Notes under the pieces: generated by a model
The model's database searches: none
Told to the model about the DNA's origin: nothing
The model's input: only the letters and a program-made list of their open reading frames with translations
In this document: one piece after another, positions 3,590 to 62,288 of the stretch
Numbering within the stretch: position 1 is the stretch's first letter
Layout of the letters: each line of letters begins with the position of its first letter
Translations under genes and position numbers: made by a program
Assembly: GCF_006345805.1 (NCBI RefSeq)
Contig: NC_043004.1
Coordinates: 93,806,001-93,870,000 of the forward strand
DNA: 64,000 bases
Source: Octopus sinensis
Taxonomy: Eukaryota
Direction: 5' to 3'

Positions 3590-3652
<63 letters not shown>

Positions 3653-3708
3653 CGGAGATGTACTCGCATAGCAAGTAATTTGATCTGAGATCGTGTGCTG
3701 AAACGAAA

Positions 3709-3986
3709 ACAAATGCAGCGTGGAAGGTGTTTATAAGCCATTTAGAAACACACAAAAGCCGTTCGATTCACTTCAACATTTAAGTTTAATTTGTCAAAAT
3801 ATTTTCGTCGCTAAAATCCGCGACCTGTTCACTGACAAATACCGTGCAGCACGGACTTTGTCAGTGACAGGTCGCGGATTTTAGCGACGAAAATATTTTG
3901 ACAAATTAAACTTAAATGTTGAAGTGAATCGAACGGCTTTGTGTGTTTCTTAAATGGCTTATAAACACCTTCCACGCTGCAATTGT
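3709..3986. repeat. Fold-back palindrome (~135-bp arms, centre ~3848) of a Penelope-like pLTR remnant
   Basis: Arms are reverse complements apart from a few single-base indels; centre CCGTGC-A-GCACGG; flanked by (TA)n; related single copy at 47540-47680. Confidence 0.9.
3790..3839 (-). ncRNA. Minimal type-I hammerhead ribozyme, G3:C8 core variant
   Basis: Minus: tttgtca-GTGAACA-g-gtcgc(ggatttta)gcgac-GAAA-atat-TT-tgacaaa; 7-bp stem I, 5-bp stem II, palindromic stem III AATATT. The mirror copy on + at 3857-3905 lacks one core A. Confidence 0.65.
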
Positions 3987-4465: not shown

Positions 4466-5286
4466 TTTATATATGTGTGCTGCAAGATTCTTGATGTGAA
4501 ACCGTGCGTTGAAACAGATATTGTTGTATTTCGAGATAGTTATTTTTTCCCTCTTTTTGCCAAATAAACAGGCGCACTATCACTCATTTATTACTGTTCT
4601 TATTCTTATGTATGTATGTATGTATGTATGTATGTATGTATGTATGTATGTATGTATGTGTGTATGTATATACTTACATATATATGTATATACATATGCA
4701 TATATGGGTTCAGGACGTCACAGAAGGTAAACAACAGGAAATACGAAATACGAAAATATGGAATACGAACTGTTTTGCGAACAGCGAAAGAAACAATAGT
4801 ATCGATAATGCCCGAAATTGCGTTTGACTCCTCTTGCTGATAACTGATGAAGAATTTGTGACCTGTGTGTTTTCTGTTCGCCTGTGCATTTAGTATGTGT
4901 TCGTTTGTTTATTTACAATACGTTTATTTTTAATTATATATTTATAGATATGTCATATTTTCCGTTTGTTGTATTTTTATTTAATCCTGAAGATATTATT
5001 TATGTAACGCACGCACTCATTAATCTTTTACCTATATATATATATATGTGTGTGCGTGTGTATGTGTGCGTGTGTGTGTGTGTGAGTGTGTATGTGTGTG
5101 CGCGCGCGTGTGTGTGTGTGTGTAGTTCAAATTTACAGAAAACAAACGACGAAGACAGGTGAAAGAACAACAAGCAGAGTTTGAAGGTTTTTTAGTTATA
5201 GAAATCGACCCCAGGACTTACTCTTTGGAACCCTAGCACTTATTCTATCGGTTTCTTTTTCCAAAACGCTAAGCTACGGGGACGTG

Positions 5287-5832: not shown

Positions 5833-5878
5833 GACACCTGATGAAGGCTGGAGAGTAAATCAGCCGAAATTTTGTGGT
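5833..5878 (+). ncRNA. Degenerate minimal hammerhead (same family as 38325)
   Basis: gacac-CTGATGA-a-ggctg(gagagtaaat)cagcc-GAAA-tt-TT-gtggt; stem III CG replaced by TT; downstream tail matches 38370-38420. Confidence 0.6.
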
Positions 5879-6467
5879 AGCAACAAACAAGATGAGGACA
5901 AATATCCGTCCAATGTAAAAAATGTAAATATTGTACAGAATTCCTCATCTCTAAAATATAGCACAATTTATGATTGTTTCAAAAATTCCATGTTGACTTA
6001 ATCTTGCATCGTGTTTTTAAACGACTCCACAATTAATGATGTAGTCATATCCGTTGTACAGATACCCCGTTCATAGAAATGATCCCTCGCAACTCTCTAC
6101 AAAAAATAATATGCTGAAGTGTTTGTCTATCGCTTAAATATAGGACATTAATCAATGTTTATAGTGGACGGCACAGCGGTCACGTTTATACATGATTGAA
6201 GATAAGTCAAAATGAATTTGTAGAAATAATTGTAAACTATGAAACAAAAATAATAACGCAAACTCCACTTTTCAGTGCTTATTACTTCTGTAACCCCTCA
6301 GAGGAAACATGACTCCTCCTTCACTCCTCTCCACCCTTCATTTATGGTTTGAGAATAATTCTATAATTGTTGTAAACTGGAATGGAACTTACTCTCTTTC
6401 TGCTGACATCCATTCACCATTTAATGCTACTTGCTTTGCATCTTTTAGAGAAATAGATTAGATATAA

Positions 6468-8099: not shown

Positions 8100-8370
8100 C
8101 AAGAACATCACCATCATGACTGGCAAGATTCTTGCCACCACTACTGCCATTCTTACCACCACCACCACCACCACCACCACCACCACCACCATCGTCTCAA
8201 TCATCATCATCAGGATCATTATTTTCATTCCCGTCCTCACTATCTTCATCCTCCGCCCCATTACCGTCGTCATCATCAGCATCTCAATCGACACAACCAT
8301 CACAATCATCTTTCTCGTCCTCACCTTCCTCATCGCCAGCCCCATCGTCATCATCATTCGCACCGTCATG
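8100..8370. repeat. (CAC/CAT)n low-complexity tract
   Basis: Trinucleotide repeats giving poly-T/P/S ORFs. Confidence 0.85.
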
Positions 8371-38324: not shown

Positions 38325-38370
38325 GACACCTGATGAAGGCTGGAGGGTATATCAGCCGAAACGTTGTGTT
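38325..38370 (+). ncRNA. Minimal type-I hammerhead ribozyme (canonical core, loop-less stem III)
   Basis: gacac-CTGATGA-a-ggctg(gagggtatat)cagcc-GAAA-cg-TT-gtgtt; follows a (TAA)n tract. Confidence 0.8.
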
Positions 38371-38611
38371 AACAACAAACAAGACGAGGACAAATGTCCG
38401 TCATATGTAAATAATGTAAATAACCTAACAGTTCTGTCAATAAACTGTCATATTCATACGCACGCTCGCGGACGCACACACACATGCACCTCACAAACAC
38501 ACAAACATATATACACTACAAAATACACGCACACAAGCACGACACACTGTTTATATGTTCGTAAACAAAATTGGAGATAAATAAACGACAACGAAACAAT
38601 TGTATGTGCGT

Positions 38612-47321: not shown

Positions 47322-47602
47322 TTTAATGTAGCATTAAAAGAATAATCACTTTGTCTTCAAAAGAAGATTCGACAAGAAACTGCTGAATACGACAATGCTG
47401 CATCAGCATTTTAAGAATAGTATTCAGTGATCACTAGTAACAGCGACTGATATTTTTAGAAAAAAAAAAAATACTTGGTAAAAGAATATATGCTACAACC
47501 CATCATACAATATCCAAATAAAGGCGTAAAACTGTAATGATTTTATAAACCATTTAAGAAACACACAAAATCCGTTAGATTCACTTCAACATTTAAATTT
47601 AA

Positions 47603-47653
47603 TTTGTCAAAATATTTTCGTCGCTTTGAGACCGCGACCTGTTCACTTACAAA
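47603..47653 (-). ncRNA. Second G3:C8 hammerhead copy
   Basis: Minus: tttgtaa-GTGAACA-g-gtcgc(ggtctcaaa)gcgac-GAAA-atat-TT-tgacaaa; loop II differs from the 3790 copy while stem II is conserved. Confidence 0.6.
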
Positions 47654-47770
47654 ATTCACTGCATCACGGAATTTTGTCAGATATATAGATCTTTCAAAAT
47701 GTGACCTCGTGTATACCGTTGGCGATTTTTTTCCTCTGTCTTCCCTTCTCTGGATCTTTCCTTCTCCTAT

Positions 47771-47805
47771 GTTTCCGACGAAGAGCTCCGCTCGAAACGT
47801 TAAAC
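47771..47805 (+). ncRNA. Minimal hammerhead, U4C-mutated (element 47690-47890)
   Basis: gttt-CCGACGA-a-gagc(tcc)gctc-GAAA-cg-TT-aaac; element ends in (TA)n. Confidence 0.6.
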
Positions 47806-47995
47806 CCTCCTTCTTTCCTTCTTTCCTGAGCGTCCAATAATACTATATTTGTTCCACGTCCTCGCGTTGTGTTTTCTTGTTTGGATTAACTATATATATA
47901 TATATATATAGATATATATATACATACATACATACATACACACACACACTCACACACACACACGCACAGACACACACACACACACACACACACAC

Positions 47996-62142: not shown

Positions 62143-62177
62143 GTTTCTGAAGAGGAGCTTTGCTCCAAACGAAAAAC
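62143..62177 (+). ncRNA. Degenerate minimal hammerhead (element 62070-62285)
   Basis: gttt-CTGAAGA-g-gagc(ttt)gctc-CAAA-cg-AA-aaac; paralogue of 47771. Confidence 0.5.
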
Positions 62178-62288
62178 TAACTTTCTTTCCTTCCCTGAGC
62201 GTCTGTTAATACATTGCATTTACCACGTCCTCGCGTTGTTGTTTTTCTCCTCCTTGTGTTTATTTTTTGGGGTGGTGGGGATTAATAT

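What the first reader, a model, noticed from the sequence alone, without database searches (positions are those of the whole stretch)
3709..3986. G3:C8-swapped hammerhead in a head-to-head fold-back
Seen: core GUGAACA in place of CUGANGA, i.e. C3G and G8C together. It also occurs in an independent copy at 47603-47653 whose loop II differs while stem II is kept. The 47.6-kb copy also has a short inverted stub (ACAAAATTC..GAATTTTGTC) at about the same position as the 3848 palindrome centre. Established: double 3/8 swaps restore the tertiary pair. Inference: a natural rare-core ribozyme family whose fold-back point is intrinsic (hairpin-primed second strand or inverted pLTR). The UUU triplet would predict slow cleavage.
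Basis: partly seen in the sequence, partly recalled or inferred. Interest (0 to 1): 0.8.

Follow-up and report, generated by a model that had tools for sequence, protein, structure and literature searches.

The report
Jumping-gene ribozyme with swapped core pair
An octopus jumping gene carries, in thousands of copies, a hammerhead-shaped RNA motif whose central base pair is naturally flipped and which likely still cuts itself slowly, and the mirror-image repeat around it likely arises when two short copies of the element's RNA are pasted in back to back.

Summary
Confirmed and extended. The motif is a minimal type-I hammerhead in the pseudo-LTR/5' UTR of a Penelope-like retroelement (RT plus GIY-YIG; 92 nt upstream of the start codon). 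G3:C8 is the family norm: 6,441 genomic matches, 94% with C8, and 0 of 100 non-C8 copies C3:G8. The sister family and outgroups have C3:G8 or U3:A8, so the swap is natural and probably derived. The fold-back point is real but is the transcription start: 64 of 99 copies begin at +1 to +7, and 12 of 13 complete ones carry an untemplated, cap-like G. In 43 of 52 head-to-head insertions exactly one arm carries the 60-nt tail; none has two tails or two short arms. The palindrome is therefore most likely two short cDNAs from capped, uncleaved RNA joined at their ends, not a snap-back or read chimera. Cleavage is untested. Under 1% of copies start at the predicted cut; a few re-copy from exactly that base. 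I found no natural G3:C8 hammerhead in the papers I could read (one key paper was unavailable). This scan noted G3:C8 candidates in two other genomes. New variant of a known kind.

The parts
3650..3708 (-). PLE 'tail' (about 60 nt), on the left arm only; codes for residues about 11-31 of the element's ORF; abuts a (TA)n tract
   Evidence: the ORF continues from here in the near-full-length copy L086; only one arm has it in 43 of 52 head-to-head insertions
3709..3847 (-). Left arm: short copy of the element's 5' end, from about +8 after the transcription start through the hammerhead and start codon
3739..3741 (-). Start codon of the RT-GIY-YIG ORF, about 92 nt downstream of core G3
   Evidence: L086 core at 3865, ATG at 3957
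3790..3839 (-). Minimal type-I hammerhead motif: stem I 7 bp, core G3-U-G-A-A-C8-A9 (3832-3826), extra G 3825, stem II 5 bp with G10.1-C11.1, GAAA, palindromic helix III, UUU triplet, predicted cut 3797/3796
3842..3854 (.). Head-to-head junction of the two arms' 5' ends, through a 3-nt TGC microhomology just inside the transcription start
   Evidence: many loci have similar but not identical junctions
3845..3986 (+). Right arm: short copy from about +4 to the first (tail-less) 3' end; its hammerhead (3857-3905) lacks one A in the core; followed by (TA)n
47542..47664 (-). Copy of an older subfamily (other loop II, G3:C8 core at 47646-47640, one stem I mismatch)
47665..47680 (+). 16-nt stub of the second, inverted arm of the 47.6-kb insertion

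Best explanation
This is the 5' end of a Penelope-like retroelement that carries a minimal type-I hammerhead motif with a naturally swapped G3:C8 core pair, which likely cuts only slowly or with help, and the palindrome is likely two short cDNAs of the capped, uncut RNA inserted back to back. Shown: the motif lies in the pseudo-LTR, on the sense strand, about 92 nt before the ORF start and again about 1 kb after its stop; G3:C8 is fixed in the family; sister elements have C3:G8 or U3:A8. Inferred: an internal promoter starts a capped RNA 22 nt upstream of G3. The element's GIY-YIG endonuclease nicks both strands of a (TA)n tract. RT primes on each nick at one of two internal sites in the first ~30 codons, 60 nt apart, which makes the tail. 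In a transcript that starts in the upstream pseudo-LTR these sites lie only ~145 and ~207 nt from the cap, so RT runs off the 5' end, often copying the cap as an extra G. The two cDNA ends are joined by microhomology. The ribozyme would work as a dimer through its palindromic helix III or with the element's protein, and would trim a small share of the RNA.
For: PLE identity: open frames up to 807 aa with YVDD, DKSG, a CX3CxxC linker and YQIKC..YIGET; tandem pLTR-ORF-pLTR copy L086. G3:C8: 93 of the first 100 of 6,441 matches (hand count); 386 lack C8, none of the first 100 of these is C3:G8; four loop-II types and four upstream types all keep it; no other letter listed at positions 3 or 8 in contigs of 4 runs from 4 coded organisms (6 rows hidden). 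Covariation: sister family B C3:G8, family C C3:G8 (338 matches vs 3 control), metagenome relatives L207 and L211 C3:G8, L208 and L209 U3:A8; 3:8 paired in 12 of 12 rows, 90% of cells paired vs 66% shuffled and 29-51% slid; A+B sisters, SH-aLRT 100. Start site: 64 of 99 5' ends at +1..+7; 12 of 13 at +1 preceded by G where the template has T/C (P=6e-7). Two 3' ends: 39 and 44 of 99, also as loose ends in all 4 runs. One tail per insertion: 43 of 52, none with two tails or two short arms. Published: two RT starts define the tail, both strands are cut, uncut RNA is the main template, C3G/G8C partly rescues a PLE hammerhead (PMC11167929). Hint of cleavage: L243 and L307 have both arms starting exactly at the predicted cut with tandem re-copies of the first 11 nt, a signature also seen at the cap end (L077, L134).
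Against: No cleavage assay. Junctions at the predicted cut are 31 vs 14 and 19 at the two neighbours (P 0.01-0.02), but a wider hand tally shows no clear peak (first 100 of 160: 9 at the cut, 9 at +4, 7 at -1, 6 at -4, first 100 of 288: about 5 at the cut). At most 49 such copies against 6,441 motifs. The motif stacks unfavourable features: swapped pair, UUU, and G at the extra position where the published consensus has H. Sister family B has A9C, so this clade may tolerate decay. Three of the four metagenome rows were found with a descriptor that required 3:8 pairing, and all 12 rows were hand-picked. 21 of 25 scored arm pairs share loop type, which does not exclude one RNA used twice. The start site is not confirmed by RNA reads. 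The tree is a quick, midpoint-rooted one.
Confidence: 0.75

Rival explanations
1. The motif descends from a hammerhead but no longer cuts. Its sequence is kept because it overlaps the internal promoter (+23 to +60) or a protein-binding hairpin, and G3:C8 is a frozen accident.
For: Insertions come almost wholly from uncut RNA. No clear peak of 5' ends at the cut in the wider tally. Sister family B carries A9C. G8 is 40 of the first 100 non-C8 copies against A8 17 (hand count), as if an unpaired G3.G8 form once transposed. In PMC11167929 catalytic mutants do not impair insertion in vitro.
Against: Both positions changed to restore a Watson-Crick pair, and C:G, U:A and G:C all occur among relatives. 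Stems and core persist while loop II changes in sequence and length. Copies with re-copying that starts exactly at the cut. The 10 G3.G8 rows examined (three from one tandem cluster) fall on mixed backgrounds, not in one subfamily.
Confidence: 0.2
2. The palindrome forms by snap-back: the first cDNA folds at an intrinsic hairpin and primes its own second strand.
For: Junctions cluster within about 20 nt and often use microhomology; 18 use the stem I repeat. 21 of 25 scored arm pairs have the same loop type.
Against: One arm has the tail and the other does not in 43 of 52, in either order. Arms come from different subfamilies in L006 and L026 and by eye in L183/L184. Solo copies without a partner (35 of 87 loci) start at the same place with the same extra G. 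Spacers between arms differ from locus to locus.
Confidence: 0.07
3. The palindrome is a MITE or fold-back DNA transposon with terminal inverted repeats, or a chimeric-read artefact, and the hammerhead look is chance.
For: The unit is a near-perfect ~280-nt palindrome flanked by TA tracts. Rfam lists no hammerhead. The arm differences in the window include single-base indels typical of long-read error.
Against: The arms are the 5' end of an RT-endonuclease element. Arms are unequal and long inverted versions of 1.3-1.5 kb exist (L083, L084). 52 loci have distinct junctions. Opposite-strand joints also stand in contigs of 3 of 4 public runs. The structure covaries across families.
Confidence: 0.02

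Closest known systems
Minimal type-I hammerheads of Penelope-like elements (Cervera & De la Pena 2014, PMC4209133)
   Same: Position in the pseudo-LTR, extra nucleotide between 9 and 10.1, G10.1-C11.1, palindromic short helix III, NUH triplet, thousands of dispersed copies, pairs on opposite strands 100-700 bp apart.
   Different: Core is G3:C8; 0 of the 56 motifs in their Fig. S3 have it (53 C3:G8, 3 U3:A8 by my reading). The extra base is G (consensus H; 1 of 56 has G). Stem I is 7 bp.
Poseidon element of the green anole, PAc (Frangieh et al. 2024, PMC11167929)
   Same: Hammerhead next to the ORF start, two internal RT starts that define the tail, AT-rich targets, both strands cut, uncut RNA as main template; C3G/G8C made in the lab partly rescues cleavage.
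   Different: Here the swap is natural and fixed. The tail is 60 nt rather than 30-40. The protein has the CX2-5CxxC linker of Neptune/Nematis-type elements. Most insertions are 145-207-nt cap-to-RT-start copies.
Natural core variants of hammerheads (Perreault et al. 2011, PMC3088659)
   Same: Natural covariation at 3:8.
   Different: They report U3-A8 only.
Twin priming and cap-derived untemplated G in LINE-1 (review PMC4859970)
   Same: Inversion by priming from both target strands; an extra 5' G marks complete copying of capped RNA.
   Different: LINE-1 uses one RNA primed at its poly(A) end and then internally. Here both arms are copies of the same 5' segment, primed at two fixed internal sites.

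Membership tests
Hammerhead ribozyme, type I | Helices I and II around the core, G10.1-C11.1, G12-A13-A14-A15.1, A15.1-U16.1 | tested here: met
   covariation
Hammerhead ribozyme, type I | Core C3-U-G-A-N-G8-A by sequence | tested here: not met
   G3 and C8 in 93 of 100; U4, G5, A6, A9 are canonical
Hammerhead ribozyme, type I | Watson-Crick pair between positions 3 and 8 | tested here: met
   G3:C8; C:G, U:A and G:C among relatives, 12 of 12 hand-picked rows
Hammerhead ribozyme, type I | NUH cleavage triplet | tested here: met
   UUU at 3799-3797
Hammerhead ribozyme, type I | Site-specific self-cleavage | not testable with these tools
   Indirect genomic test inconclusive
PLE minimal hammerhead | Extra nucleotide between 9 and 10.1; palindromic helix III; location in the pLTR | tested here: met
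   the extra base is G rather than consensus H
Penelope-like element, EN+ | Single ORF with RT and C-terminal GIY-YIG endonuclease | tested here: met
   Motifs seen in the translations; Pfam returned no family for either fragment, so the naming rests on motifs
Penelope-like element, EN+ | Pseudo-LTR from partial tandem, inverted 5'-truncated copy, tail on one end | tested here: met
   L086 tandem; L083, L084 inverted
Neptune or Nematis clade | CX2-5CxxC linker before the endonuclease and microsatellite targeting | tested here: met
   CQSNCAVC; TA-rich 3' flank at 81 of 131 ends; features as listed in Craig et al.
Neptune or Nematis clade | Placement in an RT tree with named reference elements | not tested
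   No named references were available; Nematis-like is my recollection only
Non-LTR retrozyme | Head-to-tail tandem monomers, each with a hammerhead | tested here: not met
   Copies are solo or head-to-head
MITE / fold-back DNA transposon | Equal terminal inverted repeats unrelated to an RT element | tested here: not met
   Arms are unequal and belong to an RT element

The most novel reading that the evidence does not exclude
A natural, active G3:C8 hammerhead, so far known only as a laboratory rescue mutant, became fixed in a young high-copy retroelement, perhaps through an unpaired intermediate whose fossils remain. Its thousands of short insertions record the Penelope mechanism directly: two RNPs prime on opposite nicks at two fixed sites, run off at the cap or, rarely, at the ribozyme-cut end, re-copy that end in telomerase-like repeats, and join head to head.
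Probability: 0.4. Interest if true: 0.75.

Novelty: new variant of a known kind. Interest (0 to 1): 0.6.

Why it matters
The 3:8 pair is the contact that defined the active hammerhead fold. A natural G3:C8 family, with a C3:G8 sister and U3:A8 cousins, is evolutionary confirmation and shows that descriptor and Rfam searches miss large families. The role of hammerheads in Penelope-like elements and the origin of their inverted repeats and tail are open questions. This family gives thousands of short insertions with a mapped start site, a strict one-tail-per-insertion rule and an estimate that under 1% of templates were cut, which makes those questions directly testable.

Tried and rejected
Rfam scan of the window: no hammerhead in the 150 rows shown. 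Pfam: no family for either ORF fragment. Canonical C3:G8 subfamily inside family A: not found; the 338 canonical matches were family C in 14 of 15 loci viewed and unrelated in 1. G3.G8 intermediate subfamily: G8 is over-represented but the copies have mixed backgrounds; inconclusive. Peak of 5' ends at the cut: weak against the two neighbours, absent in the wider tally; inconclusive. One search used a structure string with stems II and III off by one column and was discarded. The first 5'-end mapping used one upstream variant and undercounted; redone. The dimer energy evaluation failed (invalid structure) and the cofold did not give the helix III dimer, so dimer formation is not supported by computation here. 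RNA: no RNA holder listed on record; the four guessed-RNA runs are contigs and show neither strand nor starts. No raw long reads were offered, so the window's own junction and the missing A in the right arm were not checked against reads. The careful tree did not finish; the quick tree is used. Papers not held: Lunse et al. 2017 (PMC5785218), Przybilski & Hammann 2007 (PMC1986816), Martick & Scott 2006 (PMC4447102). One supplementary file of PMC4209133 was not searchable.

Full report
Observation. The minus strand of 3790-3839 reads as a type-I hammerhead: stem I of 7 bp, core G3-U-G-A-A-C8-A9, an extra G, stem II of 5 bp closed by G10.1-C11.1, GAAA, a palindromic AAUAUU and a UUU triplet. It folds as predicted, z -3.4. 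The two arms are 94.8% complementary, but the right arm lacks one A in the core. The 47.6-kb copy has the same core, another loop II, one stem I mismatch and a 16-nt inverted stub. Rfam lists no hammerhead in the 150 of 166 rows shown.

What the repeat is. A genome search with the left arm gave 30 loci. Four continue past the fold-back point into a microsatellite-rich UTR and a GIY-YIG coding region. Searching with that region gave 20 more loci; 19 show the same motif downstream of the ORF on the sense strand, and several have long open RT-endonuclease frames. L086 is a partial tandem: motif at 3865, ATG at 3957, an ORF of about 1,070 codons with one frameshift, then the motif again at 8226. 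L083 and L084 have 1.3-1.5-kb inverted copies at their 5' ends. The protein has DKSG, YVDD, a CX3CxxC linker and YQIKC..YIGET, the features Craig et al. list for Neptune and Nematis elements (passages). Pfam names nothing. The best named homologue is a hypothetical Octopus vulgaris protein at 55% identity, which itself matches this genome at up to 99%, so the host is an octopus. The window's left arm carries the start codon and first 31 codons; its last 60 nt are the PLE tail.

G3:C8 is the family state. The pattern with positions 3, 7 and 8 free has 6,441 matches and 0 control matches; 93 of the first 100 are G3:C8 and none C3:G8 (hand count). 386 lack C8; of the first 100 of these 43 have U, 40 G and 17 A, none is C3:G8, 3 are U3.G8 (one belongs to family C) and 2 A3:U8 (hand count). 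Four loop-II types and four upstream types all keep G3:C8. Contigs of four runs from four coded organisms list no other letter at 3 or 8 at 3% or more; 6 rows were hidden and coverage dips there.

Relatives. Family B (55% protein identity) has C3:G8, the same extra G, a compensated stem II and A9C. Family C has C3:G8 with A9 (338 matches vs 3; 14 of 15 viewed loci) and is closer to B than to A. Of 14 metagenome loci, four gave a motif just behind the ORF: L207 and L211 C3:G8, L208 and L209 U3:A8; the others mostly lack flanking DNA. On 12 hand-picked rows 3:8 is paired in all (6 C:G, 3 G:C, 3 U:A); 90% of cells pair against 66% in shuffles and 29-51% in slid controls. Three metagenome rows were found with a descriptor that required the pair, the three G:C rows are one family, and two rows are misaligned at their 3' side. 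A quick, midpoint-rooted tree makes A and B sisters (SH-aLRT 100) with the four metagenome elements outside, so G3:C8 is most simply derived in family A.

The fold-back point. I took the loci of the first 100 matches and scored 99 motifs. 5' ends pile up: 64 at +1 to +7 from an A 22 nt upstream of G3, 17 at +8 to +17, 7 at -4 to 0 and 11 further upstream. Of 13 that start at that A, 12 are preceded by G where long copies have T or C (P=6e-7); over all loci 21 of 25. Untemplated G marks reverse transcription of a cap in LINE-1 (review passages), and Penelope has an internal promoter in its pseudo-LTR (passages). I infer this A is the start site. 3' ends are bimodal, 39 at 120-128 and 44 at 180-185 nt after G3, matching loose ends in all four runs. 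Of 87 loci, 52 are head-to-head; 43 pair one tailed with one tail-less arm, none has two of a kind, and 9 have one otherwise truncated arm. Arms share loop type in 21 of 25 scored pairs, differ in 2 and are unclear in 2; L183/L184 differ by eye. For the anole element, RT starts at two internal sites that define the tail, both DNA strands are cut and extended, and uncut RNA is the main template (main text parts 1-2). The simplest model is two cDNAs primed on opposite nicks, each running from one RT start to the cap, joined by microhomology. Snap-back cannot give mixed-subfamily arms or solo copies with the same 5' end.

Does it cut? Not shown. Copies with the core must come from uncut RNA. Copies starting at the predicted cut number 59 by exact pattern, against 20 and 23 at +1 and -1. 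After removing internal changes, duplicates and 18 stem I fold-backs: 31, 14 and 19 (P 0.010 and 0.024). A wider hand tally finds no clear peak. L243 and L307 have both arms starting exactly at the cut, with tandem re-copies of the first 11 nt, and L240 has one re-copy; re-copying is also seen at the cap end (L077, L134). That fits an RNA end at the cut but rests on three loci. I put in vivo cleavage at about 0.6.

Literature. Cervera & De la Pena 2014 (text parts 1-2 of 4, supplement file 2 parts 1-2) describe these minimal motifs, U3-A8 variants, low activity and opposite-strand pairs; none of the 56 motifs in Fig. S3 has G3:C8, and one has UUU. Perreault 2011 (section 8 and passages) report only U3-A8 in nature. 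G3:C8 appears as a laboratory rescue in PMC11167929, PMC8495972 (passage) and PMC3884650 (passages). Searches for a natural G3:C8 returned none. Lunse 2017 on PLE hammerhead variants could not be read and may contain one; I saw only a review's account of it. Searches found no paper on cap-G short inverted PLE copies. PMC7229834 (passages) and the 2026 retrozyme preprint (part 1 of 5) added nothing on this. That G is disfavoured at the extra position is recalled, not read. Earlier scan notes list G3:C8 candidates behind Penelope-like RTs in two other genomes, unverified here.

Verdict. A new natural variant of a known ribozyme in a known class of retroelement, with an unusually clear insertion record. 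Interest 0.6.

Noticed in passing
window 47771-47806 (+), degenerate relative near 62145-62180: Another PLE-type minimal hammerhead with C3:G8, extra A and GUU triplet. This copy and one in L121 have U4C, while L123 has U4.
   Followed up: partly
window 38325-38372 (+) and 5833-5880 (+): A further canonical minimal hammerhead family with a 6-bp stem II; the 5.8-kb copy is decayed.
   Followed up: partly
L120:6864-6912 and other family B loci: The young sister PLE family has a fixed A9C change in an otherwise canonical core; metagenome relative L208 has C9 too.
   Followed up: partly
L307, L243, L240; L077, L134: Tandem re-copies of the template's first 8-14 nt at 5' junctions, starting at the predicted cut or at the cap, resembling repeated RT jumps at an RNA end.
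   Followed up: partly
L075, L165, L181, L327-L343: C8-to-G changes are over twice as common as C8-to-A (40 vs 17 of 100); possible unpaired intermediate or mutational hot spot.
   Followed up: partly
L116:4258-4300 and 4622-4664 (+): Two copies 364 nt apart of a U3:A8 hammerhead with GUC triplet, retrozyme-like tandem.
   Followed up: no
L083 (minus strand, about 1.4 kb at the locus end): Asn-rich frames from another PLE-like element with a GIY-YIG-type end lie close to the family A insertion.
   Followed up: no
window 27350, 29103, 41506, 47119, 59190, 61137: A dispersed ~220-nt repeat that resembles octopus SINEs; the name is recalled, not tested.
   Followed up: no
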